A stretch of 63,142 nt of DNA, counting the filler, from Hausera hauseri (Eukaryota): NCBI GenBank assembly GCA_046269625.1. It is 10 parts of 10 records of this genome, joined end to end, with 100 filler letters (N's around TTAATTAATTAA, not from the genome) between each part and the next. Parts side by side here need not be neighbours in the genome. Positions count along the whole stretch, not along the records: positions 12,312 to 16,271 come from JBJURY010857078.1; 9 more parts are not named here. One strand, given 5' to 3'. The notes under the pieces are model-generated. The model saw nothing but the letters and a program-made list of their open reading frames with translations. It was not told where the DNA came from and searched no databases. Positions within the stretch are counted from its first letter, which is position 1; every line of letters starts with the position of its first letter. Positions 2,953-37,070 of this stretch are shown here, one piece after another. The translations under genes were made by a program, and so were the position numbers.

Positions 2953-5900
2953 AATGGACTCTTCACCCACCGTTGACACCACTAACAAAACTACCTCTAA
3001 AACATCACATTTTGCTTTTGACCAAAAATCGTCGACCGTCACGACGCCATCTACTTTCACTAGCTATACATCTTCCACCCCGCCAGCCAAACACACTTCT
3101 TCTCAATGTACGGAGTATTTTATCGATTAGGAAAAATTCAGCACAACGTGGTTCAGCTTTCACAAACTTTGACTGCAGTCTAATAACATTACTGATCCCT
3201 AGCAAAAGCTTATTGTTTGCTTTGTCTCTTACCAAACACAGTTAAGTCTTTTCTTCACAACATTTTAGACATGTTTCAAAAATCAAACCCGTACACACAT
3301 CTCTATAACGCAGTCTTAAAATTTACTGAACCGTCTATAGATTCCATAATCCATAGATTCTTTAATGATAATGGCATGGGAACACAAAAGCCTTCTAAGT
3401 TCCTGCGTACGTCGTTGGCTCACCTACAAACATTCAGTGTAACTAGGCAACATAATTCAGACCTTCTGCGACGATATTTCTTAAACGTGTTATCTATACA
3501 AATTACAGCTCTCCTTACCGTTATCAAGGAATCTACAGCATTGGATAAATTGGCGTAATTGGCTGATAAAGCACATGAAGTGCTACAATTAAATTCCCAA
3601 CCAATTGTATCAGCAGCAGCCAAAACAAGCGGCAATCAACTCAGTGCAACAATAGAGCAACAATTGAGCCAATTATGCGCTGAAAATTTAGCACTATAAC
3701 AGACAATAAATAAAATAAACAATAGGTTGAACAATCTTTCATTACCACGACGAAGTGTTCCTATTCATAATCATACTCGTTCTCTCTCCAAAAACAGGTC
3801 ACCATCACCTACACGATCTTTTATGTGCCATTATCATAGAAAATTTCATAATAAAGCTAATAAATGCTGTTTAGGGTGTAGATATTACACTCCAAATTTA
3901 CATTCAGACAAGATCGTTTGCACCATGCAAAATTTGAATTCCACGCACAGAAACGTCTTTCAGGCTGCAACTATAAGAACAACGCTAAAAATACTACCGA
4001 CAGACGTTCTATTTCTCTTGATAATAGTCGGCCAATCTCACCATTCCAGAAAAACTAATTTCGCTGCCAGTACTCACGGCAGAGTCTAACAAAGGCAACT
4101 TCTCCAATACTACCTGCCTACACACTTCCTTTTCAGTCTTTACACTAAAGGCTTCGATAACCACACAAACAACTCAATCCTTAGATTTCCTTATCGATAC
4201 AGGAGCCGCGGTTTCTTTGCTACCGCCCACTTTCCCTGTACAAAATTCACCATTCAAAGCAAAATCGTTATTTACGGCTTCAGAAGAACAGCTAGACATT
4301 TCGGGTACATGTAAATTGTCGTTCACCTTACCAAACTTTTAGCCCACGTTTCATTGGATATTTACCTTCGCTAACGTCCGCACAGCAATCCTACATTTGG
4401 ATTTCTTGTCGCACTATAATCTTTTAATTGATTGCAAACAACAGTGTCTAAAACTTAACACTACTGGACATCTTGCCGAGCAGATAAATAGTATCTCCCC
4501 TAAGGCGCAAACGATCTTCCAGCGGAAGCCTATACTCAAAAATCCTGTAAGTAATCCAAATCCCTTCAACCAGCACTTTTCATTTCGTAAATTTTTTAAC
4601 GATAATGTGGATATTCAGTCGAGATTTGGTTTTGACAGCTAGGTTTGTGTTGGTTCAGTACATTGTCTAGACAAAATTACCTCTTAAACACTATTTTTAA
4701 TACTACTATCCTACATAAAATTTCCCTTGATTTCAATAACTCGCAAACATCACTCGTCACCGCACATATTGACTCAACACCATCGCCATCACCCAACCTC
4801 TCGCAATTGCCTGCAAGTCTACTGCAATACATACACACTTCATATCCCCGCTTAATACAGAAGTACCGAAACTTCACACCTACAAACAGCACTTTTCATC
4901 ACATTATAACGCAACATCAAGGACCTATTCGTCGAAAGGTACGTCCACTGTCACCTCGTCGTAGGCAAGCTGTCGAAGCGGAATTTCTAAACCTTGAATG
5001 TTCCGGCATTGTACGAATATCTAAATCGCCGTGGTCTTCGCTTTTACACGTTGTCCAAAAAAGATGGATTATTCCGACCATGCGGTGATTACCGTCAGCT
5101 AAACACTTTAACCGTTATGGATGCATATCCTTTACCATTATTTAAGGATATCCTACACCGGCTCAATTCAACCACAGTATATTTAACCATAGACTTAGCC
5201 AAGGCATATCATCAAATTACTGTAACACATGAGGACATCGAGAAAACTGCAGTTACGACACCTTTCGGACTGTATGAATACATTTATATGCCTTTTGCTT
5301 TACGCAACGCTGCGCAGACTTTCCAACGTCACATCGACTTCGTCCTCTCGGATTTCACTTTTGCGCATCTATATATCAACGATATCTTGATTGCTTCGTC
5401 TTGTACCAAACAGCATGAGGAACACCTTTGTTTCATTTTTAACGACTTAACCGCCACAATTTACAAATTAATTTTACAAAAAATGTCGCTTCTTCCGAAA
5501 GCGTATTAACTTCCTCGGACACATCATTTCAGCAAATGGTCATTTTTCTCAGCCAAAACGTGTTAAAGCTATCAAAAGTATACAACTACCACGAAGAACA
5601 ACAAAAATGAAAAGTTTTTTGGAAACTTTGCACTTCCTTCACAAGTATGTGCCGTATTACTCTGAACTTACCGCACCATTGGCTCATTTAAGTGGTGGCA
5701 AAAAACATCAGCAAATTCAGTGGACACCTAATCTGGTTGATAAGTTTGATAAGCTACGCGAAGGAATTAAGACCGTCGACATTCTCGCTTTCCCCAAGCC
5801 TGATGCGGAACTCATCCTTACTACAGACGCTTCAACTGCTGTGCTTTACCAAATACACAAAGGAGAAAATCAAGAACTAAAATTTTTTTCTCGTAAGCTA

Positions 5901-7871
5901 ACGTCCCCTGAGACTCGATATTCAACGTGCGATCGAGAATTATTGGCCATAGTTCTCGCTCTAAAGCATTTCTCCCAACTACTTGTCGCTCACCGTTTTA
6001 CCATACAGACCGATCACAAGCCCTTGCTAAACATCATGACTATGAAACATCCTTCTTTACGCCAATAACGACAGATCATATCTGTCGACATTTAACTTTG
6101 ACATATTTATGGGGTTAATAATTTGGTTGCCGATTTTCTATTTAGGACGGTTGGTTTGATTAATTTTTCACCAGTCTTTTGTCAAGTACAACTCCAACAG
6201 AACCAGCCACCTCAGTATATGCTTAGTTCTTTTAAATTTTACACATTTATTGACGGCGTGGCTTTAAACACTTCTAAACCAGGTCATTCCTTAATAATTC
6301 TCGCACCACCTTTACAACGGCAAGCGTTTAACAATGTACATTCACTGCACCATCCTGGTGCTAAGGCAACTTTTCGCTTACTCCACCGACAAGTATTATG
6401 GCCGACTATGCGTTCTGATGTACAAGCGTGGGTTAAGGAGTGTGTGGCTTTCAAGAAATTTAAAATCACCAAACATCTGAAGCCACCACTATATCATTTC
6501 CCTTGCACATCACGCTTCGAGTCAGTTCATGTTGACCTAGTTGGCCCTCTTCTTCCTGACAACGGTCATCAGTTCATTTTGTCCATGATGGATCGTTCCT
6601 CACTTTGGCCAGAAGCTCTTCCACTACGAAGAACTAACACGGACATAATAGCCGACTTTTTCATATGCACTTGGATCAGCAGATTAGGATCCCCTAGATT
6701 TATTTCTACAGACCAAGGTACTTAGTTTGAGTCCAATTTGTTTAAATCTCTCGTTAACCGATTAGGAATTAGCCATATACACACATCACCGTATCACTCC
6801 CAATTGAGTGGTCTTCTAGAGAGATTTCACAGAACACTAAAAACGTCACTGAGATTTCTTGCAGAATCCAATAGCAGTTGGACTACTATTCTTCCGCTGG
6901 TTCTTCTGGGTTGACACAACACCCCTTCTATTTCTACTGGTTGTTCACCTACGGAAGCCCTCTTCGGAACACCTATACGTCCATTATTGTAGTTAACTGC
7001 TTTGGAAGACATACTTACAGACGAAGCTACTCGAACGGCACAGGACCATTTTGTCTCAGTCAGTAAATATTCATTCTGCAGGATAAAAATAACAACAATA
7101 CGTACCTACCAGAGGATTTATACTTGCAAAGTGCGTCTGGTTAAAAACCAGACGCTGTGCGGTTTTCAACGACGGAATTTGGGCCTTACAGACTCGTTCA
7201 ATTGCATTCCGACAATGCTATTATATTTAAAGACGGCACGGAACTAGCGGTGCATATCAACAACGTAAAGCCTACTTTTTTCGTTGATGATGCCCCTCAA
7301 ATAGAATCTTCCACGCCTATTCTGACTCTACCGCCTTTTGCCTTTCAGTTACTCCAACCACTACCACCTTCCCCATCCCAAACCCAACACCTACCCCTTT
7401 ACTAGATCCTACTCCAAAAACCCGTTCTACTAACCTACCCACTTTTCTTCCCTTTTCACTTTCATTTTCCCCTCCAACCCATTCCTTGTCTCTGAAAGAT
7501 ATATCACCTCCAACGACGACGTCCGACATTGTTTTATCTCAATCAACTTGTCAACCAGATTCAATTAAACTAAAAAGCGCAAATTCGTGTCATTCAGTAC
7601 CTACAGTAAAGATATTAAACTTACAGGGGTACAACGTCTTATTCACACAAAAACCTCCTAGATGGCCTGCACTGTTCAACCACATTTTTCTCTTTTCTTA
7701 CCCTATAATCTCTTCTTTGCCACGGGGGCATAATGTTGTGCCTAACAAGAACTTTTATATACTCTGTTTTGTTTTCTCATTCGTTGTTATTTGTTTGTAA
7801 TTCTCGACGAATTGATACGCTTCTGCTGTCTGCACCTCATCGTGCCAAAATATCTCATCAGGTCCACAACA
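2953..7871 (+). mobile_element. Decayed Ty3/Gypsy LTR retrotransposon (gag-PR-RT-RH-IN, 3' LTR)
   Basis: Gag has a CHYHRKF..ANKC..GC motif. Protease FLIDTGAAVS (~4190); RT RPCGDYRQLN, IDLAKAYHQI, MPFALRNAAQTFQ, YINDILI; RNase H TTDAS..DRELLAI..TDHKPL; integrase HSLHHPG..ECVAF, VHVDLVGPL, STDQG. Many stops and frameshifts. No 5' LTR is recognisable. Confidence 0.95.
7734..7871 (+). repeat. Putative short 3' LTR (138 bp)
   Basis: Starts TGTTGTG and ends CACAACA (7-bp terminal inverted repeat). It follows a G-run (acgggggcataa) downstream of integrase. Confidence 0.65.
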
Positions 7872-8789
7872 GCCCAGATTTATAGATCCCTATTTGAAAT
7901 TTGACTCGATGACTCAGTTTACAACAGAAAGATTTCCTTGTATCCGCATACCACACCAAAATACTGGATACCCTCAATCCAGAATGTACAACACGTCAAT
8001 TATTATTCTATGATGGTATAGGTAATATTCACTAACCATCGGAAGGCGAATGCCAAATAAATTCCAATCAAATAGACTTGAGCGATTAAGAAACAGGTGT
8101 TAGCGTCATGTTTTAATTACTGTATATGAGGACACCATGAAATCAACGCTAGATTAATGTGGCGGGGGGTGATTCGTTACGCAATGTTCTGACAATATTC
8201 AAAAATCAATAACTGCAACAAAGATCAAAGACAGGCTAACCGATAAGTCAAGAAAAACACGTACTTGTTTCAATTGCTAATGCTCTTATTCAATAATGCC
8301 AAAATTTATTCATTTCTAATTTACAAAGCCGTGATAAAAATTATCATTTCATGCAACATTATGTAAGCTTGGTTTAAACGTTTCAATGTTTTTTAAAAGT
8401 TCTATACTTCCATAACGTTAAAGGAACGTAAAGAAATGCGTGGTTCCTGTACGTCATCTCAAATTGCATATCTCGTAGCCATATAGACATAAATTCATGT
8501 TTATTGATTTAGTGGAATTTAAAATATATAATTTGTTGTTATACTTCCGTTCTTTTGTTAAATGATGGAACTAAGTAAAATTGCGAATTTACTATGGTGT
8601 CAGAAGATTTATTTATCATTTCGTATTTATCAAAAATATGATTTGAGAGGAAATTATGATGCTGGATCCGAAAGACGAGAAAATAAATGTAAAACATTGA
8701 ATTTAACAAAACTGGTTAATCATTCAGATTCGAATTATGATTTTTCCAACAGCTCTTCAAATTTAACACAGATGAATGAAAATAACAGT

Positions 8790-10520
8790 CTCAGTCGTAG
8801 ATATTTACTTGAAATTATTAATCTTTGTCGTCAAAAAAGTAATTGGGCAGCTTTACTTAGTCCGCTGGAAAATGTATTTTCATCTAAAGTCTTTCCAAGA
8901 GTTTTCTTTATGATTTCAGTTTTGATTCCAGTGAGTCTGATGGTGATAGTGAATCGGTAGTTGAAAAAGCTGACTGAAAACAGGTAGAAAGAACAAATAA
9001 TCCGTCCCAGTTCTCATTTTTATACCGTCGATGTTAACAGTGTTCGTAAAACATTCAAGACCTTATTCAGTCTCAATGATGTTGATTACTTTACGAGTAT
9101 TCGAAAAGGATTAAATCAGCTTGTTCAAAATATTAAGCGGAACAGCGAATTTTACAATCGAGAAAAACCATTTGAAACAATGAATTTTTAATCATTTTAT
9201 CTGTAAATCCCTATCTAAGCGATATTTAGAAATTCGAAATCATTTTACCGTTGGTTTGTGAAATTGTTCCATTGCTTCCGATTGAAGCTCAAGCTGAATT
9301 AACGGAAATTTTAGCGGAAAATATTTAAAGAGGGCAATCGATTATTGCTGCTCCATCAAGCCTTACAGCAGAGAATTACTTTGAGACGTCTTACGACTGA
9401 ATACGATTCAACATATGTTTTGAATCAGGATCGAGAAATTATCAATACGGAGTATACGATTGAATGTGTTTATTATGCAAGTATACTGGACGGTTCAGTG
9501 GACTCGGTTGATCAATTGGAGTCTGAACGAGAGTATAATAAAAGATAATCAATGAACATCAATCATTCCAAATCACGATACCATAAGGACATTGCAAGTA
9601 TCTTGATGATCCCTGCCATGGATTGTCGATTTCCATTAATTCTGTACGATGGTTTTATTAACGAAACTCTAAATGAAAATGTCAATATTGAAAATGATTA
9701 CGTTTGTTACAAGGCTGGGAAAGACTTCAGTTTTGTCAAATATTCATTTTTACTCAACACCAATACGAAACGAATTCCTTTGTTTTGCAATAGAATTCGA
9801 ATGCGTGCCGATTATTCGGAATCGCCATTTTTGTCTAATCTTATTCATAGTCTCTGAAAATTATCGTTGATAGAGATAATTTGGTTGATGATACATTGAA
9901 TGCGCTTGAATATAAAATTTCCAGAAACTTAGACAACTTAAATAAGCGCCTTTACATAGAATTTCGAAATGAAGAAACTGTTGACGAAGGCGGTGTTAGC
10001 AAAGAATTCTATCAGTTGATTTTCGAAAAGATTTTTAATCCTGATCATGTAATGTTTGTTTTTAATGACGAAACCAATTTATTTTGGTTCAATCCATTTC
10101 TTATGGAAGACATGTCGCGGGAATTGAAATTGATTGCTATTATTTTGGGATTTGCCATTTACTTCGGTGTTACACCGGATTTGAAACTACCTCCTGTTTT
10201 ACATAGTAAGTTGATGGGGAAGTTAGGGAATTTCGAAAATTTAAAAATTACTAATCCGAGTTTGGCCGTTGGACTTGAAGGCCTCTTAGAATGTGATAGA
10301 GATATGGTAACCAGTGTTTTGATCAAAATTTCGAAATAGCCGTTAAAGATTCCTTTGGTAATATTGTGATAAAAAAACTTAAGAAAAATGTTAAAAGAAT
10401 TTCTTTAAATGGAGACAATAGAGAATAATTCATAATGCTTTACACCGATTACTTATTGAATTATTCAATCAAGGAACAATTGAATGCTTTCTATGAATGC
10501 TTCCAAATGGTAGTTGATGA
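8790..10520 (+). pseudogene. UBE3A: UBE3A/E6AP-like HECT E3 ligase, intronless, truncated before the catalytic C-lobe
   Basis: Colinear segments resemble E6AP: LEIINLCRQKSNWAALL..VFSS; LQQRITLR; DCRFPLILYDGFINETLNE; FSFVKYSFLLN..NRIRM; LNKRLYIEFRNEETVDEGGVSKEFYQLIFEKIFNPD; LYTDYLLNYSIKEQLNAFYECFQMV. Multiple stops; homology ends at ~10520. Confidence 0.92.
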
Positions 10521-11492: not shown

Positions 11493-12045
11493 AGTGATGT
11501 TCATAATGACATTCAATCCAATTTTATTTTGTTCCTATCCTATTCTCGTACCGATGAATTAAGTCGTTGGTTCATTTACTAAAAAGTTGTTTCGTTTGAA
11601 TATTGCTTTTCTACACACCAAAAAGTTGTCTTTAAACAGTTCCTCAGAGATAACAAAATTGACATGAAAATTGTCAGCGATCCTGTTGTCAAAACTAAAC
11701 ATTCAAATATAACCAATGTGTTACACAGAGTTAAATTTCAAGCAGTTACCGATTTGACTAAATCATGCAAAGTCTATTCGAATAAAGGATTTGCATATAT
11801 TACCGAAGATGAACTCGTCCATTATGTAGCAACGGAATTCCGCAAACACATGTCTCACAATTTCTTAATTTTGTGCCTGAATTGGTCACAAGCCGAAGAA
11901 GTCAGTCGTTTGAATTTTTTGTCCACTATTGACAAGACGCACTTTGGTAAGGATTATTCCCAGACGAAAAAAACTAAAAAAAATTACCGCTAATCATATA
12001 CCTTCATTGAGTAAAACTTCTTTTCCGCGATGGATGCAGCTGTTG
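11493..12045 (+). pseudogene. PRIM2: DNA primase large subunit fragment, copy 2
   Basis: Paralogue of 1577-2120 (DIQSNFILFLSYSRTDELSRWF; SLSKTSFPRWMQLL) with independent stops and frameshifts. Confidence 0.85.
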
Positions 12046-12211
12046 TTATATCAACAAAAACTGCTGTCAACCAGTGAGGTTATCAGTATTAGACTGCAGA
12101 GTGGAGTGAGTAAGAAGATCGATTACAGACGTCTGTCAAAAGGTGCCAAGCAGACTAGATTCGATGAAAATCAGACTACATATAACGAACTGGCGGGCTT
12201 ATTCAAAGAGT

Positions 12212-12311: not shown

Positions 12312-12917
12312 CTGTATCACATTCTTTATTGTAGTAGTCACATTCAAGAAATGTCATCATTTTAACCGATTATAATTCGAATAGAACATCATTCTCTCAA
12401 TTCGATTTGATATCATTCGATGGCTACTACATTGCCCAAAATTTCGTCCTTTATATTGTATGATTCTCCTTTACAATATCCTGTTTTATCAATAGCTCCA
12501 GCGGCAAAAATTCTTTTGTTAATGACTTTTCCTTTTTGAGCCTTGAACCGAATGCTTCCAATATTGAATTGTTTAGTTACAAATGCTTCTACACACCCAT
12601 TTGCTTATCGGAAGTCGTTCGAAAGGAGTGGTTAGTTCTACTATAGCCGAATTTCTGTACCAATAACCACAAATAAAGTTAAAGTAATTCTTTCGCACGA
12701 AACATTCACTTGTTTTTGCAAATTCAATTCTTGTTAAACCTAATATTCTTTATTGGATACTGTAGTTAGTGATGCTTGATTGGCATGTGGACATTTTCTA
12801 GATCTAACAGAGAATATATTGGACCTTCTTTCGCTTGTCTGCAATCATAGGCAGTGATTGAAAAGGTTCTTGCCACGAGGTTAAATAGTACAAATGTGTA
12901 TAACTTTAATTAACCAT
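12312..12917 (-). pseudogene. N-terminal part of a class III (chuvirus/gB-type) fusion glycoprotein, env-like
   Basis: Manual minus-strand translation across frameshifts gives a hydrophobic leader LYTFVLFNLVARTFS, then ITAYDC..IYSLLDLE-C, ECFVRKNYFNFICG, IFAAGAIDKTGYCKGESY..GNVVAIE and ECDYYNKECD. The cysteine pattern fits chuvirus-like G (GYDC..SLLDV.EC; LAG.ID.DG.C.G..Y). Not present in the ORF track. Confidence 0.75.
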
Positions 12918-13179
12918 GATAAGTCGAAATCTGGCCGTTGATTTCGTTGTCATTCTTGCTGGTGAGATGGAGTATTTTCTGTTGTCTCTGAGTAAAAGGT
13001 ACCGATTTTTGTATTGTTGCCTGAATCAGAATACTAATCCATCCACCTCTACACTACGCATCCTTAGACATTAACCTTCAATGCTCTTGTGGCAATTTCT
13101 GTTTCTTTCTCTCCTCTTGGTTTGGATTTACACCATTCATTACCGTTATTTTATATGAGATAGGACATAGCTGTTACGA

Positions 13180-15345
13180 TTTTACTTCTTGTTATACCAG
13201 TTTCCACCATTCTCGACAGCATATCTCTTCTGTATTTTGTTTATTCTCTCGTCTGTAGGAATATCGGCAAATTGCTCACTCATTTTTGCTATTTCATTCC
13301 TGATGATTTGTATTATTGAGTCTTGTATTTGTAAATTGGTGTTGAACTCAACGAATGCATTGTGCATCCTTGCTAACAAGGTCTGCAATAATGTTGCTAA
13401 TGGTTCATTACCTGCATCATGTTCATCACCCGTTGTTAGTAATTTTCGATCAACGTCGTCATCTCTCGCTTTTCTACCTTTTAATTGATAAAGTTTCGTA
13501 GTTCCTTAGGGTCTACCACGATTCCTTTTATCTGTCTGAATTTGCTCTGATATTGAAATATTCGTTTCAGCTGTCTGCTGATCTTCATAATGTAGTTCAG
13601 CTTCTTGTATCTCCTTTTGTTTAACTTCAGTAATGATTTCATCAATTTTTTATGCTCGGATTGTCTAAAATCATTGCATACTGGGTTATATCTACTTTCC
13701 CACATACCTACTTCATATACGGTTTCGTAATCTAATAGGGTTCGCCCGTAGAGACGTAATTCCAATTCCTCGAGGTTGGATTACTTCATTGGTTTTGTTT
13801 CAAATCAACTATCGTGTCCAACGACTTCATTCTTATGACTTGAAAATCTTGATTATATTGTTGGAGAGTAACTATTACTTTGGAGTTTTCTCTGACCGTT
13901 CTTACTCTATATGCATACCGATAGATTATGTCTTACGACATTCTGATATGGATTGTGGCCAGCAGCATATACTAACATGTTTATTAAATTAGCAAACTGC
14001 TTATGGCTAATCGTAGGTGACAATAACATCGAAAGATCTTATCTGAACTGAGTGCCATTAATTAATTCTTGATTGGCATAGCTCAATACTTTTCGGACTT
14101 TTTCCATGCCATCTTGGTCTAAATGTATAGATGAAGTTTCCACTTGTGATGGTTCCTTCACTTTCTTCTTATCCTTTTTATTTTCTCGCTTGGCTCACTT
14201 ATCACTTCCAGAAGGTGAGTCTGATTCGGGCGTTCTTAAATCCTCTTGTATAAAAGGTTTATCTTTTGTTTTGACCTTTCTCTTCTCAGTATCTGATTCT
14301 GCTGCAGGACTCTTTTTAGGTCTGCCTACTGGGGCAATAATCGAACTATCGTTGTTCATTTTGTGCCTTTTCTCACAAACTTGTTGCTCTTTTAACTTCA
14401 GATATAGCTGCTTTAATTCAACCACATTGTTTTCGTTATGTCCTACCATATTGGTTTTGCACTATTTCGATTTAGCTCTAATCTTTTGTTGGAGCTTTTC
14501 TACTGTATCTTCGTGTTCATTGTGTCATGTACAGTACCAAGTATATCAGCTTTGTTTTTCTTTGATTGTCCTTGCTTAGCGCATGAGCGAGCGATATGTC
14601 CATAATTTTCACAAGTAAAATATAATGGCTGTCCATCTTGATTAACCAGTGGCTTCCTCACTGCAGACTTTGAGGTTGACTTTACCCAGTAACATTCTTT
14701 TGCTCTTGCTCTGGTCTTCCGAAATTTTTGGAACGGCTTTTGAAAATTTTTCTTTTGCTGAAAATTTCTCGGTTTCTTATTATCTTAGGGATGCTTCTTT
14801 ACATTCTCCAATCGTTCATAATTGACTTCAATTTTCCTAGCTTTACTGACATCTTCTTTATAAGTGTCAGGATCAGCAACGATAATATAGTTTTGGATTT
14901 CTCTGTTTATTCCGTAACAGAACTGAGCTAGGAGAGCATCTTATATCTTCATCTACGTTCGCTCTCAGCCAAATTCTGCAGGGCACATGTATACTCTTGC
15001 ACGGTTTCGTCTTTCCTTTGACGTCTCCTGTTGAATTTTCCAATTCGACCTTTTTCTGACGGGTCTACTGTGAGCCTTTCCTCCAGGGACTCCTTAAGAC
15101 TATACCAATTGGATTTATTCTCATCTTAAACTTGTGTGTAAGCAATAAGTGATATACGTTTGAGATGAAGTGGAAGTCGTTTTATCCTAAGCTCATCTAT
15201 CCATCCGAAGCTCTCTGAATACATCAAGTAATGCATTAGGAACTCACCAGTCCTGATCCGGTTCTCCTTGAAACTTATCCATGGGCAAGACTATCGTGCC
15301 ACTTAGGTTGCTACCTAAGCTGGCTCCTAATCCGGAACTAGACCT
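13180..15345 (-). pseudogene. Decayed Gag polyprotein with CCHC knuckle and ubiquitin-like domain (paralogue of 35014-37070)
   Basis: SSGLGASLGSNLS start; SEKGRIG; degenerate knuckle ..CENYGHIARSC; ELKQLYLKLKEQQVCEKR..PVGRPKK; UBL VTLQQYNQDF..MKSLDTI..ELRLYGRTLLDYETVYEVG (~13675-13885). Confidence 0.88.
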
Positions 15346-15478
15346 CTGTAGATTTCCTTCTATTTTGGGGATTTTCTGTATCTGATTCGGATAAACTTCT
15401 ATTGAATCTGTTTTTTCCGTTATGATAGTAGCGTGTGCTTTACGCTTATTTCGTCAGTTGTACAACGCCAGCGTGCCT

Positions 15479-15495
15479 CCTCACTCGGGGCACTA
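15479..15495 (-). promoter_or_regulatory. Primer-binding site, elongator tRNA-Met type (one mismatch)
   Basis: The minus strand reads ..ttaaCA c TAGTGCCCCGAGTGAGG, upstream of gag. It matches 34867-34883 apart from one base. Confidence 0.8.
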
Positions 15496-18217
15496 GTGTT
15501 AAGTTTTGAAGTTAGAGACGAGTTTGCGTCTCGCGACCTCAAACTTAAACTTTATTTATTCGCTTAAATAACAACCTGTGGGGTTACTAGGCTGTTTATT
15601 TAGGTTACATGACCTTAATGTGTAAGTTTGGCAGAGTCAATTTGTAGCCATCGTCCTTTCTTTTTCATTTTTCTCGTCAGAGTGATAGTTTCAGCGTCGA
15701 GAATTGATTCTGTGGAGCTGGCCATAGGTAATGATTTCCAATCAATATAACAGTCTTTTAATAGCTACTTAACGAAGAGGGTATCTGAATTGGTGTCGAT
15801 GTTTGATTAATGGGTATCTGTATAGGCACCTGAACTTGATCCTTACACGAAGAGACCGTGAAGTCTGGTATCGTGGTTTGTCTGTCGGATATAAGTATTG
15901 ATGTGTCCATATGTTCGATTGAATATTTAGAATTTCCAGTTTTAACGTTAAAGTAATTCAATAAGAAACGTGCAATTTATATTTGATTAATTGAAAATCT
16001 AGAAATTTAAATTTTCGAATAAATTATAATAATAAAGATCTATTTAGTATGACATATTTTGTTGAAAGTGATAAATTGAGAATTTAATGATTGTGAATTT
16101 AAAATATTGTATTTGCGATGATAAATTGGTTGAACAATTCATATTCTCAACATTACGAATTATTTTTTTGTTTTAATATTTCGGGCAGGGAATATATGGT
16201 TGTATACACTTTGCTGGTGAACTGGTGAATAATTATACGGAACATAAATGGATAAAATATATGTAGTATTGNNNNNNNNNNNNNNNNNNNNNNNNNNNNN
16301 NNNNNNNNNNNNNNNTTAATTAATTAANNNNNNNNNNNNNNNNNNNNNNNNNNNNNNNNNNNNNNNNNNNNTGCACATTCATATACTGCACCATGTTTGT
16401 GTTCGAATGCACCCGGTCACATGTCCTAATCATCAATATTGGAAATATTGGAAATCCGATATTATTGATTTTTCTCACTTCCACATGTGCAGTGCCCCTG
16501 CACTGTCACCAATCGATATGCACTGATGTGCACTATCGATTAGCACTTTGCCCCGGTCGATTCGATCAATACTGCACTGTGCAGCGATCGATTTGTGAAA
16601 TCTGCAAAAACGTGCCTAGCAACGGTGCCTAACCACACGGTTGCCTAGCACACTACCGATCGACAGTGCACCATATGCACCATCGATTGGCACATGTGCA
16701 AAATTGATTTATCGATTACCCCCTGGATGGGGGTGAGAGACTTCCCATTTCTCCCTATTCCCATTTAATTAATTACTGAAGGTTAATAGGTTTAGAAAGC
16801 ATTGAATTACAAGATGAGCAATTATTTTATAATTACAAGTTTTATAGTAGACTGGCTCCTAAATGCTATATCATACAGAAAACGGTAATAGATTATATTC
16901 AAATAGAATCATATTTAAAAAGTATAATAGAATTATTGATAGCTGTGCAGGTTGATTAACCTTTTGTGCTGTCCACTGTTTGTTAATTTTATATGATGGG
17001 AGTTAGATCTGTGATACCACACGAAACACAGGTTGGACTTAAATACTGTTGATATGTTATCAAATCATAACAAATACCATTATTTAGTAACTCGTATAAT
17101 ACTAACGTATCTTTATTTTTTCTTTTGTTTTTATAAGAGAAAATCTCATGTAATACGAATCGTATTAAATTTTATTTCACTTTTCAATTTTATTAAAATA
17201 TTGAATATGATTGTTTTTCTGTAAACCAGTGAAACGCTATTTTTCTCGTCGTGTTTTATTTCACTGATATTCAAATATCTTTAACCGAACATTGTCCTAG
17301 TTATTACCCAGTTTTCCATTTCATACGATTTCCGATTGGACAGCTCTGAGAAATATTGAGCTTGTTATGTTAATTTTGTCCTGTATTATAGTTAAGCCAA
17401 ACATTTTCTAATTTCGACATTTTGACATACAATCATTTGATTCTTTATTGAAAACTGACATAAATATTCCCAAATAACATTGTAGACATTATAATTTGTT
17501 ACGTGGAGAAAGAATAACATCGATAAGAAAGTGTCATCTAGATATTTCTGCTGCTCAGTAATCGTTCGTGTACTTCGAATAAATGTTAAAATAATCGATT
17601 ATCTAATCAACAATTACTCGAGAGCATAAAATTCAAAATTGGATTGATAGAATAAGAATTGAAAAGTAGCTAACGAAATCATTTGAACTCAGAAAAGTTG
17701 AATTTCGACTTGAATAAAAACTTTATGCTTTATGTTTTTAAAATAAAATCTTCCAAATGCCACCATATACACCTGCAACATGAAATAGTTTATTTAAGAG
17801 CAATATTAAACCATTTAGATTTGTGATTTACATCTATCCCTTTTAAATAAAAAATGATTACTATTTATGTAACTACTTCAGCAAATTCAAATGATATATT
17901 GATTGGAAATTCATTTAAAATTTGTATTTGAGGGAATGATGAGATAATTTAGCCAACGGATAAATTATGATTATTTGGCATTTGGTGATAAATATTTCTG
18001 TATAGTAATCAGACGTATTCCTTAAATTATTTTTATTTCATGTCACTTTGATAATATTTATATAGGAAAAAATTTCTTCCGTTTAAATTAGACGAGAGAG
18101 AATAATGATGCTTCAATAATTGAACTTATTTAAAGATGTTATTTATTAAAGTTATTTATAGATATTAAATGTTATGGTTCTGATTATACGAACATGTTTA
18201 ATGTTGATTTATTTCAG

Positions 18218-20790: not shown

Positions 20791-20947
20791 NNNNNNNNNN
20801 NNNNNNNNNNNNNNNNNNNNNNNNNNNNNNNNNNTTAATTAATTAANNNNNNNNNNNNNNNNNNNNNNNNNNNNNNNNNNNNNNNNNNNNATTTAGTTTC
20901 AACATGAGGTGGAAATTCAGCTTACTTGTAAGATTTTTCTTCTATAA

Positions 20948-21790
20948 TTACGGAGATACCTTGTAAGTATTTCTTAAGGTAGTATAGGCATGAAGTTTTA
21001 CCGGTATCGGGGCATTATTTACTATCCTGAAAGGTACGCGGCCTGTACGTATTCTTGTCAGTATATTGCTGAGTATTATGTTTAGATTCAATGTTTCCTT
21101 AGGTTCAAAATATACCTGTTGATCGTCGTTTTGCTGAATTTGCGCATAGATTATCATCTCTGTTCTTGGTGGAATGTTTTCATTCACTGAAATCCACAAT
21201 TCTCCAAATTTCCTATCTTTAGCCCTTTTTATGCCTTTATTTGTTCTGATTTCAATTCATTTCCCCGTTTGCAGATCGATTGCTATATTTGGTAGTCTTT
21301 TTAGTAGAACTACGTCGTCGGTCAATAGTTCCATAACCGCAAACTTGTAGTGGGAAAACTTTCAGACTATTTGAACTTCCGGGTTTTATTTAAACACTGA
21401 TTTTGACACTTGGCCAAATGCTCCTGTGCTTCTGGGATCTCCTGTTGACGGCGAATATAACTTGTTTCTTAATGTTTTAGGAATCGAATCATTTTTAACG
21501 TAAGATATTTCGGAACCTGCATCGATTAAGGCATATACCTCCCAATCATCCATGATGATTTTGGCGAAAGGCCTACCTTCTATTACTGTTCCAAAATAAT
21601 TTGATGTGATCATTTGGCGCTTTATTGTCGATATTTCATGTCCATTAATTCGGATTTCCGGAGGGGATACTATATTTTCCGATAATCCTCTCAATTCGCC
21701 GTTTGGATGTAGTTTTTTATTTTCGTTGCTTACTTCTTCCGTCTCATGGCTGACGATCAGTTGTTCTCGATTGTTAGTGTGCGATTTCAT
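20948..21790 (-). pseudogene. Retroelement aspartic protease and post-protease spacer (start of pol)
   Basis: GRPFAKIIMDDWEVYALIDAGSEISYV (D[T/S]G-type site reading DAG at ~21512-21523), then STGAFGQ and the Gypsy-type spacer IPPRTEMII..FEP..GRVPFRIVN..PVKL. Confidence 0.8.
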
Positions 21791-21954
21791 GTTTCAAAAA
21801 GTTTCTATTCTTCTGTCTTCCCAGACATGGACCCGGTCCGGTCTCTATATTTCGAGGTTCCTTGGAGAGTACAAAATTCTGGGATCATTTCTAGACGGTT
21901 GGTAGCACATTTTTTGTAAAATTCCATATCGTTTCACTCCTTTATAGGGGTCTT

Positions 21955-23580
21955 CTATATTAAATGTTCTTTTATAGATTTTGTCTGATAATAGCTCGTT
22001 GATTGCTTATTGCAGTCTTCGTAAATAGGAGCGATAGGGGGTAGCATTGGCAATGGTGCTTTAATGACAGAGTATGTTTTATGTCTGTTTGTTCCTGGAA
22101 GTACTTTTCCTGCCTTAGGCTCGTTATCATCTGAATTATTTCTTCGCGTATTAGGCTTTGTAAATTTCCGCTTGTACAAAAACATAAGCCTTCCCTTTCA
22201 TTTACAATTATACTATCCGACAAGGCGTTTTACGTCCGATTTCCATCTATTTTCTTTGCATGCCCGGTCAATGTAAATATTTCATGGCCATTTATTACTG
22301 CTTGGATGACTGACTTAATAATTTGTATCCAAAAAATATATTGCTAAGAATCTGGATGGGGCTTGGCCAAAAATCAAAAATCTTCCTCAAATTTTGTAGA
22401 GTATTTCTGTGGTGACTCGCTGATAATGATTTATGCCAAGCACGGATTGCCATTTAGTCTGATATCGAGTATTGTCTACTACGAAGGCCAAGGCTCGGTT
22501 TAATTCATGTGTCCCTTGTCGCGGAAAAGCGAAAAATTGTCTGAAGGCTTCAATTTCCTTAGGTCTATATATGCCTTTTGACGAGGTGTCTTGAAATTTG
22601 TCGTCTGTAATTCATTTTGCAAGATTTGTTCCTGTTAAGTTATTTGGTGCGGCAGCAATACCTCCATTTGGCAAACTAACCCAATCCGTTGCACTACGTC
22701 TAAACATGAGTTCTCCTAAGCTTGCTTTGCAATATTGAAGGATTGTTGGTTCAGTTGCATTGTCTAATAGCACTCTAGTGAGTGGAATGGCTAACCTTGG
22801 AATATTCTGGTAATTAACGGGAAGTTCCTGCATGTAGCGTTTTTCTTCAACTTTGATTGGTACATTTCTTTTTTCACAATCGTAAGTCAATAGTAATTTA
22901 CCGGTAACTCAACCAAAAATTCCTCCTCTCATAGAAATTATTGGGGATTCCAACTCGGGATTAGCGTAAATAAGAGCCATTTTTGTCCTCATGATTTCCA
23001 TATCCAATTTACAATCATTTGTTATCATTTTATGATATAACTCGGTTATTCCGACTTGCCCTTTGTAATAGAAGTAATTGTCTCTGTTTTTCAGATAATC
23101 CTCAATTCTGGTATCCTGCGTTTCTAGTTTGTAAATCTTTGCATTTATTTCTGTTTCTGCGACGAAAATGCCTCATTGTTAGTAGCGAACATCACTACTT
23201 CACAACGAGAAATCATTTTTTTCTTCATAAATTTTAGTCCATGCTGATCAGAGATTAATATAGTGGGCGTAGGATGTTCGGATACGTCTTCGCGTGTCCT
23301 TGAGTTGGTATCAGATTTATGCACATATCGCTTTCCGGTAGTTTCATTAAACTTTAATTCCTTAATTTTGATAAAATTACAGTTTGTTCCAGAAGGAGGT
23401 TCCCAGATTATAACAGAACTTCTAAAAGCACAGGTTCCGTCTTGTGAATGACATTTTTGATTCTCGGTATATAGTTTGGTGACACCATGGAACATTACTT
23501 TCTGTGCTCGCATTTATGATTCATAGAAATCCACGACCACTACGTTTGCTTGTAATCCTTTTCCGGTGTCGTATTCCGCT
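21955..23580 (-). pseudogene. Central and C-terminal part of a class III (chuvirus/gB-type) glycoprotein, env-like
   Basis: NVVVVDFY; CHSQDGTC..SVIIWEPP..C; C..EIMRTKMALIYANPE; LLLTYDC..VPIK..ELPVNYQN..PLTRVL..C; KGIYRPKEIEAFRQFFAFP (compare the chuvirus-G GIY..DL..LR..IMFP motif); hydrophobic segment at ~22310-22380. Several stops. Confidence 0.78.
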
Positions 23581-25402
23581 CCGCTACAATGTCCGTTTAG
23601 AAGTCTGCGCCTTAATGCAGGCCTTACCTCTGGCCCACCGCATAATAGCGATAAAACAATAAACTAAAAAGGACATAAGACAATTAAGAGAAAAAACGGA
23701 GTAATGGTCACAACGTTTATTGTTATCACAATCGCTGTTGGCCGAGTTCCTCGAGGCGTACGAGGCGTCCGTGGAGGATAATGCCCGGCCATTTCGGAAA
23801 CCGCGGCGTACACAGGTCGGAACATCGTCCGAATTGGAATCGGTTGACGTTGGTTCAAGTCTTATCGGCTCCAGCCGGCGTCGACGGCGCGGTACGGGAA
23901 CTTTGTCCGGGCTGGAACTTACTGTCTTAGCCTGCGGTTTGTCAGCGGTTTGACAATCAGGAATCAACTGGCCCTCCGTTGGAGCCAGCGATTTGTAGAG
24001 ATGGTCGGCGGCCACCATCAGTCTTAAGAAGACCGGCAAGAGAACCGACGAGTCGAAGAGACGTCGATTTTCGCCGTCCTCGTAGAACCGATGGAGCGTT
24101 GCCTCCGGTAGAGCGTAACGGTCGTCTCTCTCCAGCCTGACTAAATGCCGCATGAAACGGTTCCGTTGGAGCAGCTCCAGTACCGTCAGAAAGTTCGAGC
24201 AAGACCGGGACGGGACTCGCTTGTCGGTGTTGCGATGTCGTTTGCCGCGTGGAACGGTGTTCCGCCGGGTTGTGTGCTGCCGCTCTTCTTCTCGACCTTA
24301 TTCTGGTGAGGCGACACGGCTATCGGTGTTGTTTTCCGCTTCGGCGTGTACTGGTTGGAGTACCTTGGGAATACGGTACCTCGGTGTTGATATGGTATTC
24401 CTTTAGCCAAAGGTGGCGTTGGATGGCCTTTGTGTCTTCCCCGACGATTGCTTCGCCGGGTTTTGCTGTTCAAGTCGCGTGCGTTCCCGTTTCAGCGCTG
24501 TTTTTCTGTTTTGCCGTCTGGTCCTTTCCCCAATTTTTCAGTGTTTCGGGCATAGTAGTTTTCTTTTTCTTTTTGAATAATTTTCTGTTTCTTAAAACTG
24601 TGGATTCAAACAAATGGATTTGAATCCGCAGATTTCGATTGTTAATTTTGTATTATTATTATTACAAGTGCTGATCACTTCAGCACTCGTAATCCCTGTT
24701 TAATTTTTTTGTTTCCTATTTTTGTGCTTATTTGGGATGAATTCGTGATTTTACATTGACATTTTCAGGTTACCCGATTTTCGTTATTCATTTGAAATGT
24801 TATTTGCTTGTTTAATTAAAGGTTTAATTTTTCGTCAGCTTCTTTTGTGATATTTTTGATCAACATTCATTAGGTAATTAATGGGATATTGAAACAGTGA
24901 AAATGGAGTGATATTATTGTTTTGTAAATTTTATTGGGTTTGTGGATTTTAAATTTTATTTTAAATTTTGTTGTTAGTGTCGGAATTTATTTAACATGTT
25001 TGGTATGACTTATATTTGTTAATGCTTGAATTTTGTAAGGAGAAGTTTTACAGTGGGTTATGCATGTTTAACCTTCCGACCACTACCCTGTATGCCCTAA
25101 TTATCTTCCCTGGTTGCATTTTAATTCTNNNNNNNNNNNNNNNNNNNNNNNNNNNNNNNNNNNNNNNNNNNNNNNNNNNNNNNNNNNNNNNNNNNNNNNN
25201 NNNNNNNNNNNNNNNNNNNNNNNNNNNNNNNNNNNNNNNNNNNNNNNNNNNNNNNNNNNNNNNNNNNNNNNNNNNNNNNNNNNNNNNACAACACCACCAA
25301 CANNNNNNNNNNNNNNNNNNNNNNNNNNNNNNNNNNNNNNNNNNNNTTAATTAATTAANNNNNNNNNNNNNNNNNNNNNNNNNNNNNNNNNNNNNNNNNN
25401 NN

Positions 25403-32440: not shown

Positions 32441-32953
32441 GTGGTTCAGGTTCGATTATTTATTATATGATGTGCATTTTACTGATATCTGTGTATTTTC
32501 AGCCAACTTTTATTCTGTTATAAAACGTAAAATATACATTCCTTTTTGGGGTGCCAGTAAGCATTAATAGATTTTACATTATTTCTTATGGAAATAGCTG
32601 ATGTCCTTCACGAACAACAAACTTCTTCGTTTATGAAAAGAAGCCTTTAAGAATGAATCAAGTTCGTGAACCGAGTCAGTAACACATGCACCGAGAATGT
32701 CATCCACATACGACATCGTTCTTCCAGCTCCCAGAATNNNNNNNNNNNNNNNNNNNNNNNNNNNNNNNNNNNNNNNNNNNNTTAATTAATTAANNNNNNN
32801 NNNNNNNNNNNNNNNNNNNNNNNNNNNNNNNNNNNNNTAAAGGGACATTTGGCATTCCAACGAATTGGTCTCCTCTTTAAACTCCAGACAAGATCAACAA
32901 ACCTTTCGGACTTGATAAATATATAAACAAAAACGCTTGCCATCTATATCTCG

Positions 32954-34154: not shown

Positions 34155-34865
34155 TGTCCAACACAATCAGTACGAGCTGAAATAAAGTAAATAATCGAGA
34201 AAAATAAACAGAATTGAATTACCTTACAATCACTGATCGATTAACAAATTGATTTTTGTTTTTTTTTGACTCTCCATAAATTGAAACTTGTTATTTCTCC
34301 TTCTTTGTAAATATAGTTTTATTTATTCGGTACAAATTGGTGATTGTAAAATTAGTACATATACTGATATGATTTATGTCAACCTACCACTACATAGGAT
34401 TAGAACTTTTGAACTGTTCGTACCGAAACTTTTATGTCGTACATAGATAATTGTGAGTAGCTTTATTTTTTTTGTTTCTTATCGTACTTTGATTTATACA
34501 TTTATTACCAATTAAAAGATTTATATTCGATTAATTTTCTTTTTAACAAATTTAAATAGATCATAATACAGTATTGAATAGGACAAATAGAATTCAACTT
34601 AAGGGCCCTGTTTGGTATACCGTCCCTTCAGGACGGTTGTCTAAAATCTACTAATTAAGGGGGAGTAACGTCGGTGTACCTCCTTACGAAGCTCACTCAC
34701 TACGACCAATTAAATAAAGTAGTATATAGATGTTGGCAAACCCACAGGTTGCTGATTACTGTTAAAGTAAGTTAAGCTTGAGACAAAGAGAGAACTCAAG
34801 CTTCTGAGTAAAGAGCATAAGTTTAAGGTCGTAAGACCAATAAACCTTAGACTATAAACTTATCA
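34155..34865 (+). repeat. Putative LTR between PPT and PBS (left boundary uncertain: 34155 or ~34664)
   Basis: TG follows the PPT at 34155 and CA at 34864-34865 precedes the PBS. The 3' part (cccacaggttg..aaactta[t/a]cact) is shared with 15495-15585 on the minus strand. Confidence 0.55.
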
Positions 34866-34866
34866 C

Positions 34867-34883
34867 TGGTGCCCCGAGTGAGG
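34867..34883 (+). promoter_or_regulatory. Primer-binding site complementary to the elongator tRNA-Met 3' end
   Basis: TGGTGCCCCGAGTGAGG is the reverse complement of CCTCACTCGGGGCACCA, the 3' end of invertebrate-type elongator tRNA-Met. It lies ~130 nt upstream of the gag ATG. Confidence 0.85.
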
Positions 34884-35013
34884 AGGCACACTGGCGTATA
34901 ACACGCGGTAGAGAGTTAACGCTACTAATACCATTTCAAGTACTGATTCGGCAAGGAGTAGTTCCAAATTAGACGAAGATTTCAATCCTCATATTACAAA
35001 TCAGAATTCCGAT

Positions 35014-37070
35014 ATGTCCTCAGGACTTGGACCAAGCTTAGGTAGTAACCTAAATAGCACAATCGTGCTATCTATGGACAAGTACGAAGCCAAACCGGAT
35101 CAAGATTATAGTGAGTTCATCATGCAAAATGAGATGTACTCAGAAAGTTTTAACTGGACAGATGAGCTCAGGATGAAGCGGCTCCCTCTTCACCTCAAGG
35201 GTATAGCACTTAGTGCTTATACACAAATCAAAGATGACGAAGACAAGGCTGATTGGGCTAGCCTTAAAGACGCCCTGGAAGAAAGACTCTTAGTAGACCC
35301 ATCAGAAAAAGGTCGAATCGGAGAGTTCAACAGGCAACGTCAAAGAAAAGGCGAAACCGTGCAAGAGTATGCATGTGCCCTTCAGAAGTTGGCTCAGAGA
35401 GCCTATGTAAATGATGATAAAAGGGAAGATGCCCTCCTGGCTCAGTTTTGTTACGGAGTTAACAAAGAAATCCAGAATTACATAATCATCGCCGATCCGA
35501 GTTCATATAAAGAAACCGTTAGCAAGGCTAAAAAAATTGAAATCAATTATGAAATACTCAAAAACATAAAGAAACATCTTAAAAGTGATGATAAAAAACC
35601 GAAAAATTTCCAACAAAAGAAAAATTTTCCTAAACCGTTTTATAAAACTCAAAATCAAACGGAACAACAGCAGAAGAAGTTTACATGGCAATAAGATCAA
35701 TCTCAAAAATCTGCGATGAGGAAACTAACAATTAATCAGAATGGACAACCATTATGCTTTGCATGTCAAAAATATGGGCATATGGCTCGTACCTGCCCTA
35801 ATCAAGGACAGTCAAGTCAAAAGAAAAAGAATGTCGATATAGTAGGTAATATATCTGACACGGATAATGAACACGAAACCACAGATACAGAACCAGAAGA
35901 AACGATTGAAAAGCTACAACAAAAGATCAGATCCAAATTAAAAGAAAGTAAAACCAATACGATAGAAGAGGAAGATAAGATAGCTGAATTAAAACAGCTA
36001 TACCTTGAATTAAAAGAGCAGCAAATCTGTGAGAGAAGACAGAAAATGAACGATGAAAGTTCAATTATTGCTCCTATTGGTAGACCCAAAAAGACTCCTG
36101 CATCAGGATCGGATGTTGAAAAGAAAAGGGTCAGAAAAAAAGATAAACCTTTGATACAGGAAGAAGAACTGAAGACTCCGGAACTTAACTTACCTTCTGG
36201 AAGTGAAAGTGAAAAAAGTGAATTTAGTGAAGAAAATAAACCCAAGGAGAAGATAAAGAGAATAAGGAAAAAGAAAATTAAGGAAAAATCCACAAGTTAC
36301 GAGTCTTCCGTTGATTTAGACCAGGATGGCCTAGAAATAGTTCGGAAAATATCCAGCTATGCCAACCAAGAACTAATCGATGGTAATCGATTTAGACAGG
36401 ATTTGTCTATGTTATTATTGCCAACAATTAGCCACCAACAATTTGCCAATTTATTGGATCTGTTATTAATATAATCGGCTGGTGCAAGTCCATACCAGAA
36501 TGTTGTACGATATATAATTTATCGGTACGCTAACAGAGTAAGGGCCATTGGAGAAAATCCTGAAGTAACGGTTACTCTCCAACAATATAATCAAGACTTC
36601 CATTTTCTTAGAATGAAATCGTCGGATACAATAACTATATTAAAACATAAAATTAACGAAATAAGCCAGCTTCAAGGAGAATTAGAGTTACGCTTCTATG
36701 GGCGATCATTAATGGACTATGAAACTCTATATGAGGTAGGTATTTGGAAAAATCGGTATAATCCCGTGTGTATTACTTATAGACAGTTTGAGCAAGAGAT
36801 AATCGATGAAATTATTACTGATGTTAGGCGAAAAGCAATACAAGAGGCCGAACATCAATATCAGGTGCAACCAGTAGAAGCCGGAGAGAATATACCTATC
36901 TCAGAACAAATACAAACGGATAAAAGAAATCGTGGAAGACCAAAAGGAACGACGAAACTCTATCAGTTGAAAGGCAGAAAAGCTAGAGATGATGAAGTTG
37001 TTCGAAGATTGTTAACAACGGAAGATGAATATGATGTAGATAATGTATCATTGGCAACATTACTACAAAC
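35014..37070 (+). pseudogene. Gag polyprotein: capsid-like domain, CCHC knuckle, charged linker, ubiquitin-like domain, AT-hook-like motifs
   Basis: ORFs 35014, 35716 and 36613 share one frame, split by two TAA codons. Motifs: RQRKGETVQEYA..QFCYGV (Gag), CFACQKYGHMARTC, PIGRPKK, UBL at 36559-36783 (VTVTLQ..RMKSSDTITILKHKI..LRFYGRSLMDYETLYEVGI) and KRNRGRPKG. Confidence 0.9.

What the first reader, a model, noticed from the sequence alone, without database searches (positions are those of the whole stretch)
12312..15495. Class III env directly downstream of gag, with no pol in between (gag-env junction)
Seen: on one strand of one contig the order is PBS, Gag, CCHC, UBL, about 0.75 kb of linker with no protease/RT motifs, a hydrophobic leader, then an AYDC..SLLDLE-C chuvirus/gB-type glycoprotein. 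Known: in retroviruses and errantiviruses env lies 3' of pol. Inference: together with the env-protease junction at 20948-23580, this suggests an enveloped Gypsy-type lineage ordered gag-env-pol. The ORF track misses it because of frameshifts.
Basis: partly seen in the sequence, partly recalled or inferred. Interest (0 to 1): 0.9.

Follow-up and report, generated by a model that had tools for sequence, protein, structure and literature searches.

The report
Decayed gag-env-pol retroelement, Burro-like
This is a broken copy of an envelope-carrying jumping gene whose fusion-protein gene sits between gag and pol, an unusual layout that has already been described in flatworms, nematodes and bryozoans.

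Summary
On the minus strand of contig 12312-16271 the order is PBS, Gag capsid, CCHC, UBL, linker, hydrophobic leader and the first third of a PF24664 (chuvirus/Monjiviricetes-type) glycoprotein, where the contig ends. No pol was lost between gag and env: an uninterrupted relative, P0001 (1130 aa), is collinear with the locus over residues 3-993 and carries gag and env in one protein. Six further env-bearing relatives show env-protease or gag-env order. The 0.75 kb 'linker' is not empty: it is Bcl-2-like. The layout is published: planarian Burro elements (gag-CCHC-UBL-BCL2-env-protease, one frame; PMC6431247) and gag-env-pol gB-type errantiviruses of flatworms, nematodes and bryozoans (PMC13524379), whose Schmidtea envs resemble this one motif for motif (by eye). 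The env-protease contig at 20891-25128 is a different subfamily (27% identity), not the continuation. Verdict: new, decayed, compact member of a known kind. Class III fold rests on family membership and literature; the env was not folded here. Host unknown.

The parts
15497..15561 (-). 3' end of an LTR-like segment, ending CA one base before the PBS
   Evidence: Shared with the second copy at 34806-34865. No paired LTR is in the window, so the LTR call is inferred.
15478..15495 (-). Primer-binding-site-like 18-mer
   Evidence: Same 18-mer, starting TGG, at 34867. It resembles the 3' end of elongator tRNA-Met as I recall; not tested.
14794..15342 (-). Gag capsid region, broken
   Evidence: 62-92% identity to P0001 residues 3-189 in windows; close relative P0002 hits Ty3_capsid E 0.0036, more distant ones Retrotrans_gag.
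14575..14630 (-). Single CCHC zinc knuckle, degenerate in this copy
   Evidence: Maps to P0001 197-212, PF00098 E 2.5e-4.
13900..14110 (-). Four-helix domain before the UBL, unidentified
   Evidence: P0001 about 385-455; helices with pLDDT about 67-80 in the model; also in P0003, P0007, P0153. Fold not searched alone.
13652..13893 (-). Integral ubiquitin-like domain
   Evidence: Second copy PF00240 E 7.9e-5; profile hits ubiquilin and ubiquitin, E 1.6e-5; P0001 model vs ubiquitin Z 13.0, rmsd 1.4 over 73 residues. No C-terminal GG in P0001, P0007, P0153.
13017..13415 (-). Bcl-2-like helical domain (the 'linker')
   Evidence: PF00452 in 3 of 6 aligned members, the three that contain the region, best E 0.0071; profile of two relatives hits 13252-13151, iE 2e-4; model of the L001 domain: 41 of 41 listed Foldseek rows and VIA ranks 1-31 are Bcl-2-fold proteins.
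12855..12930 (-). Hydrophobic leader, putative internal signal peptide
   Evidence: Maps to the hydrophobic peak of P0001 at 784-798; a leader precedes A[YF]DC in P0064, P0152, P0153 too. No signal-peptide predictor was run.
12312..12852 (-). N-terminal third of a PF24664 fusion glycoprotein (env), cut by the contig end
   Evidence: 53-92% to P0001 810-993 in windows; P0001 PF24664 E 6.3e-19; independent profile iE 6.8e-17.
34867..37070 (+). Second, less decayed copy on another contig: PBS, gag, CCHC, UBL; ends before the Bcl-2-like domain
   Evidence: 71.6% nucleotide identity over 2235 columns; Pfam.
20969..23597 (-). Related but distinct element on another contig: env lacking its N-terminus, protease-like motif, post-protease (dUTPase-like position) region
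   Evidence: PF24664 E 2e-20; profile positions 155-577 of 627; RVP E 0.12; post-protease region matches P0089, E 1e-6. The dUTPase label comes from position and PMC6431247, not from a hit.

Best explanation
A decayed genomic copy of a Ty3/Gypsy (Metaviridae) element of the Burro-like, flatworm-type gag-env-pol kind. In intact members one reading frame encodes Gag capsid, CCHC, a helical domain, UBL, a Bcl-2-like domain, an internal hydrophobic leader, a gB/chuvirus-type env with a C-terminal transmembrane segment, and then protease and pol. Shown: the domain order and the single-protein gag-env join in relatives. Inferred: the polyprotein threads the ER membrane like an RNA-virus polyprotein; the leader opens translocation and is cut before A[YF]DC, env is luminal, its transmembrane segment stops transfer and returns protease-RT-IN to the cytosol; the viral protease then trims Gag and Pol. 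Inferred, weaker: the cut leader stays on the Bcl-2-like domain as a tail anchor and ties Gag to the membrane where env sits, and UBL and Bcl-2-like modules act on host proteostasis and cell death. This copy itself is non-coding.
For: Collinearity with P0001 over 3-993 with no room for pol. Single proteins with the order: P0064 gag-env-protease, P0153 CCHC-UBL-env-four proteases, P0152 Bcl-2-like-env-protease, P0151 env-protease-RT-RNaseH, P0025 gag-env-protease, P0089 gag-env-like-protease-RT-RNaseH-integrase. DNA-level check: L001 has gag-CCHC-UBL-Bcl-2-like-leader-env in one frame with one stop. A leader before and a hydrophobic segment after env in P0064, P0089; C-terminal hydrophobic segments also in P0151, P0152, P0153, P0025. 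Burro has the same order (PMC6431247 section 7). YQES occurs in 4 rows of the eLife env table, all Schmidtea gag-env-pol elements, and those rows match the P0001 env motif for motif by eye. Multi-copy family: 3179 contigs of run X1 laid, summed depth 79-41,613 over 12312-15611 against 2-4 at 15744-16271.
Against: The contig ends inside env, so pol downstream is not seen for this subfamily; P0001 also ends in env. P0001 is a predicted protein whose DNA I could not see and lacks about 60 residues before the CCHC that its close relatives have, so a predicted intron cannot be excluded there. Protein searches favour in-frame fusions and would miss a separate env ORF after pol. L001 has a stop before the leader and P0007/P0152 appear split, so one frame is not universal. 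The capsid tree does not group P0001 with P0003/P0007 with support. The Bcl-2 model is of a relative, pLDDT 56, best Foldseek E 0.011 and Z 8.2, within the range common for helical bundles. Env was not folded; its PDB sequence search was blank. No Burro sequence was compared directly.
Confidence: 0.85

Rival explanations
1. A pol-deletion derivative of an ordinary gag-pol-env element.
For: The locus has no pol and is heavily decayed; conventional gag-protease-pol proteins occur among distant gag hits (P0011, P0042, P0098).
Against: The interval is fully accounted for by UBL and Bcl-2-like domains collinear with P0001 and present in L001/P0003 and P0152; env is followed by protease in P0064, P0151, P0152, P0153.
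Confidence: 0.03
2. Order is gag-env-pol, but this subfamily is a non-autonomous gag-env element mobilised in trans, or env is expressed apart from Gag (stop, splice or own start).
For: Neither this contig nor P0001 reaches pol; L001 has an in-frame stop before the leader; P0152 and P0153 carry several protease domains and no RT within the protein.
Against: P0001, P0152, P0153 and P0064 run through the leader without a stop; P0151 and P0089 continue from env into RT.
Confidence: 0.1
3. The linker is only a generic helical spacer and not Bcl-2-derived.
For: Pfam scores are far below the curated cut-off; the BH1 signature is degenerate; Z about 8 is common for helical bundles.
Against: Three independent sequences hit PF00452, retain a GGW motif at the BH2 position, and two fold searches return Bcl-2 folds almost exclusively at the top; Burro has BCL2 at this place.
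Confidence: 0.08

Closest known systems
Burro / GYPSM1 giant Gypsy elements of planarians (PMC6431247, section 7 read)
   Same: Gag, CCHC, ubiquitin/SUMO-like domain, BCL2-like domain, mononegavirus-like env in frame, then protease and a dUTPase-like region.
   Different: One CCHC rather than two or three; about 810 residues from Gag to env, with no MATH, BIR or ankyrin domain detected in P0001; total length, LTR size and pol unknown; no sequence comparison with Burro was possible.
GAG-ENV-POL HSV/gB-type errantiviruses, Platyhelminthes C1a group (Smed_errantivirus_1-6; PMC13524379)
   Same: Gene order; env motifs and cysteine spacing match P0001 by eye, roughly a third or more identical (not computed).
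   Different: That paper does not mention Bcl-2, ubiquitin or in-frame fusion in its text or supplements; its elements are intact, this copy is not; host here unknown.
Nematode non-canonical env-before-pol metaviruses (Sacco et al. 2022, seen only as cited in PMC13524379)
   Same: Gene order.
   Different: The nematode env rows look unlike P0001 and more like P0025/P0089 by eye, whose envs are distant from P0001.
BEL/Pao elements with chuvirus-like glycoprotein (mentioned in PMC13524379 section 14)
   Same: Same broad glycoprotein type.
   Different: Gag relatives here are Ty3/Gypsy-type (Ty3_capsid, Retrotrans_gag; RT-RNaseH-integrase order in P0089).

Membership tests
Ty3/Gypsy (Metaviridae) | Gag capsid with CCHC | tested here: met
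Ty3/Gypsy (Metaviridae) | PBS next to an LTR end | tested here: inconclusive
   PBS-like 18-mer conserved in two copies; no LTR pair and no tRNA comparison.
Ty3/Gypsy (Metaviridae) | pol in the order protease-RT-RNaseH-integrase, RT in the Gypsy clade | tested here: inconclusive
   Absent from the contig; protease-RT-RNaseH follows a homologous env in P0151, full order only in distant P0089. No RT tree.
GAG-ENV-POL HSV/gB-type errantiviruses | env between gag and pol | tested here: met
   gag-env in the locus, P0001 and L001; env-protease in P0064, P0151, P0152, P0153.
GAG-ENV-POL HSV/gB-type errantiviruses | env of chuvirus/gB type by sequence family | tested here: met
   PF24664 for P0001 E 6.3e-19, P0152 2.2e-90; locus iE 6.8e-17 to an env profile; by-eye match to C1a rows.
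GAG-ENV-POL HSV/gB-type errantiviruses | class III five-domain trimeric fold | not tested
   Both fold jobs went to the UBL and Bcl-2-like regions; class III rests on PMC13524379.
Burro elements | UBL then BCL2 then env, in frame with Gag | tested here: met
   P0001; Bcl-2 fold from the L001 model.
Burro elements | MATH, BIR, ankyrin and multiple CCHC in a 4,900-5,100 aa ORF1 | tested here: inconclusive
   Not detected between Gag and env in P0001, one CCHC only; the part after env is missing.
Burro elements | 25-30 kb length; planarian host | not testable with these tools
   Contigs of 4-12 kb; no genome held.
Bcl-2 family | helical-bundle Bcl-2 fold | tested here: met
   on a relative's low-confidence model.
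Bcl-2 family | BH1 NWGR groove signature and BH3 binding | tested here: inconclusive
   The signature (recalled) is not kept in P0001, P0003, P0152; GGW at BH2 is. Binding not tested.

The most novel reading that the evidence does not exclude
A compact, wider-spread Burro-like lineage in which a single polyprotein makes Gag, UBL, Bcl-2-like, env and Pol, and the env signal peptide doubles as the membrane tail anchor of the Gag-borne Bcl-2-like domain, so that one hydrophobic segment both imports env and tethers the capsid protein, with an apoptosis-modulating module built into the particle; possibly in a host group outside the three phyla reported.
Probability: 0.25. Interest if true: 0.6.

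Novelty: new member of a known kind. Interest (0 to 1): 0.3.

Why it matters
The gene order itself is in print, so the find mainly adds members. Its value is that it links two descriptions: the giant Burro architecture (UBL, BCL2, in-frame env) and the gB-type gag-env-pol errantiviruses, and shows that the UBL-Bcl-2-env core exists in a compact form in several unnamed assemblies. If the polyprotein topology holds, these elements solve Gag membrane targeting and env biogenesis differently from retroviruses and carry a Bcl-2-like module, which is rare for retroelements; that is testable in natural, expressed planarian elements.

Tried and rejected
No genome is held, so intact copies in this host could not be sought. 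Word-based homologue searches: the env piece of the other contig against longer proteins gave 0 of 1041 candidates; the P0001 UBL-linker region only itself among 6307. IMG/VR scans with gag and P0152 found nothing; phage and PDB sequence searches with the env piece were blank. ESM Atlas gave no usable hit for the 23584-24297 ORF or P0001 615-760. Fold searches on the two-domain model were filled by ubiquitin and said nothing on the other domains. The capsid tree (52 of 54 rows; P0043 and P0153 left out for short matches) is unresolved at depth, bootstrap unsettled. No RNA holder listed; no evidence on expression. Run X1 may be the source of the window and is not independent. Rejected: that 20891-25128 continues this element; that the breaks are only assembly errors (X1 contigs match 12905-13100 and 13478-13870 without differences or gaps); that the UBL is a cleavable ubiquitin (no GG); that the pol genes near 4000-7000 and 56000-58200 belong here (they follow a different gag). 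Earlier-finding look-ups were empty. The Burro genome paper is not held. Literature searches for Bcl-2 or UBL in compact gag-env-pol elements (in-paper searches) found only the Burro review; subscription journals and bioRxiv supplements were not covered.

Full report
Setting. The window is a string of short contigs joined by 100-base spacers; no genome is held. The finding lies on the minus strand of contig 12312-16271. The host is not known; fragments of a HECT ligase and a PP2A scaffold fit a eukaryote, and the closest published envs are from a planarian, but I did not establish the host.

Observation. ORF lists show only fragments. A second copy of the gag region at 34856-37070 is 71.6% identical and nearly open; it gave CCHC (E 5e-4) and ubiquitin (E 7.9e-5 on the isolated region) hits and shares the PBS-like 18-mer. 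Searching 1.84 billion representatives with it gave 1138 hits, two of them close: P0001 (1130 aa, 77%) and P0002 (451 aa, 76%). P0001 aligns to the locus collinearly over residues 3-993, from 15342 to the contig end at 12313, mostly at 50-90% identity, through about 17 frame switches. P0001 carries PF24664 Monjiviricetes_fusion at 793-980 (E 6.3e-19). A profile of five env proteins without P0001 also finds the locus env (iE 6.8e-17). No pol motif or pol match lies between gag and env.

Is pol missing by deletion? No. From residue 542 to 993 P0001 spans 1356 coding bases and the locus 1334, so the gag-env interval is the same in an uninterrupted relative. I scanned 28 of the 150 listed gag hits with Pfam; 3 of 28 carry PF24664 (P0001, P0025, P0064), and P0089, P0115 and P0088 carry a more distant env-like region related to that of P0025. 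An env search added three proteins among 6211 candidates: P0151 env-protease-RT-RNaseH, P0152 Bcl-2-like-env-proteases, P0153 CCHC-UBL-env-four proteases. In all of these env lies after gag and/or before the protease; none has pol first, though protein searches would miss a separate downstream env ORF. The JGI contig L001 gives a DNA-level check: gag, CCHC, UBL, Bcl-2-like, leader and env in one frame with a single stop before the leader. P0007 and P0152 come from contigs of the same length and abut in the alignment, so they are probably one split element (inferred).

The linker. It aligns between P0001, P0003 and P0152, each of which hits Pfam Bcl-2 weakly (3 of 6 members, best E 0.0071). A model of the L001 domain (pLDDT 56, pTM 0.57, three sequences) returned Bcl-2-family proteins in 41 of 41 listed Foldseek rows (E 0.011-0.035) and Bcl-2-fold proteins at VIA ranks 1-31 (best Z 8.2, rmsd 3.0 over 110; first unrelated row Z 5.7). 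The scores are middling, the uniformity is the evidence. The UBL is firm (Z 13.0, rmsd 1.4 over 73; profile E 1.6e-5) and has no terminal GG, so it is an integral domain. A four-helix domain precedes it and is unidentified.

The other contig. 20891-25128 holds env (PF24664 E 2e-20; profile 155-577 of 627), a protease-like motif and a post-protease region like that of P0089. It overlaps the locus env by about 60 profile positions but has no nucleotide match and is 27% identical to P0001 and 26-30% to the other envs. It is a different subfamily with the same order; its env start is replaced by a GC-rich stretch (0.54 against 0.38).

Copy number. Run X1 holds the stretch; 3179 contigs were laid, most 85-95% alike, with summed depth 79-41,613 over the element and 2-4 upstream of 15744. 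This fits a multi-copy, diverged family; the tool warns that the depth is no copy number and X1 may be the source. No RNA holder was listed.

Mechanism. Shown: order and in-frame join in relatives; hydrophobic segments flanking env. Inferred from general membrane-protein biology: an internal signal sequence and a stop-transfer segment put env in the ER lumen and Gag and Pol in the cytosol. Inferred and untested: the leader remains as the tail anchor of the Bcl-2-like domain, as cellular Bcl-2 proteins are tail-anchored (own knowledge). The BH1 signature is degenerate, so BH3 binding is open; some viral Bcl-2 folds act on immune signalling instead (own knowledge).

Comparison with what is known. 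PMC6431247 (passages and section 7 read) describes planarian Burro ORF1 as Gag, two or three CCHC, MATH, Ubi2/SUMO-like, BCL-2, env with hits to mononegavirus fusion proteins, protease, dUTPase-like, RT, and calls it the first in-frame env between gag and pol; it also notes decayed Burro fragments in a third planarian. [quoted passage not shown] Its six Schmidtea env rows match the P0001 env by eye; YQES occurs in that file only in four of them. Sacco et al. 2022 was seen only as a citation; the Burro genome paper was not held. PMC8532177 (passages) shows BURRO1 is expressed and PIWI-controlled. So it works like Burro and meets the tested criteria of the gag-env-pol gB-type errantiviruses; strict Burro membership (size, extra domains, host) is untested.

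Verdict. Real, correctly read, but a new decayed member of a known kind. Interest 0.3. What remains of interest is the compact UBL-Bcl-2-env core seen in several unnamed assemblies, which my searches found described only for giant Burro, and the untested topology model.

Noticed in passing
window 32927-34108 (+) and 15657-15761 (-): A 393-codon ORF with an ISG20-like exonuclease domain (phmmer E 1.3e-4 to ISG20; first catalytic motif looks altered) lies upstream of a purine tract, an LTR-like stretch and the PBS of the second copy; 35 residues of its C-terminus also lie upstream of this locus's PBS (54%, E 1.7e-4). Either an accessory ORF of tandem copies or part of a long LTR. Rotifer LTR elements carry DEDDy exonucleases (PMC5408684, passages), a different subtype.
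   Followed up: partly
window 40715-46329 (-): Intron-less run of two RING-finger ORFs, a weak paralogue of the exonuclease-like ORF (E 0.017) and ankyrin repeats (PF12796 E 8.6e-7). Burro is reported to carry ankyrin and RING-like domains; a link to this family is untested.
   Followed up: partly
window 23584-24297 (-): GC-rich 237-codon ORF that abuts the truncated env of the other contig; Pfam and Atlas blank.
   Followed up: partly
P0152, P0153: These relatives carry three to four tandem aspartic-protease-like domains after env and no RT within the protein.
   Followed up: no
L001 2539-3130: A single in-frame stop separates the Bcl-2-like domain from the env leader; mutation or regulated readthrough cannot be told from one contig.
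   Followed up: partly
window 3196-7000 (+) and 54841-58300 (+): Two decayed copies of a conventional gag-pol Gypsy family, 65-71% alike, unrelated to the finding.
   Followed up: no
window 47636-54361: About 6.7 kb of degenerate TTCG-type microsatellite giving long spurious ORFs.
   Followed up: no
window 8562-10500, 28856-30418, 1577-2286 with 11493-12211: Broken HECT ligase-like sequence, PP2A scaffold-like HEAT fragments, and a 720-base duplicated unknown ORF region at 90% identity.
   Followed up: no
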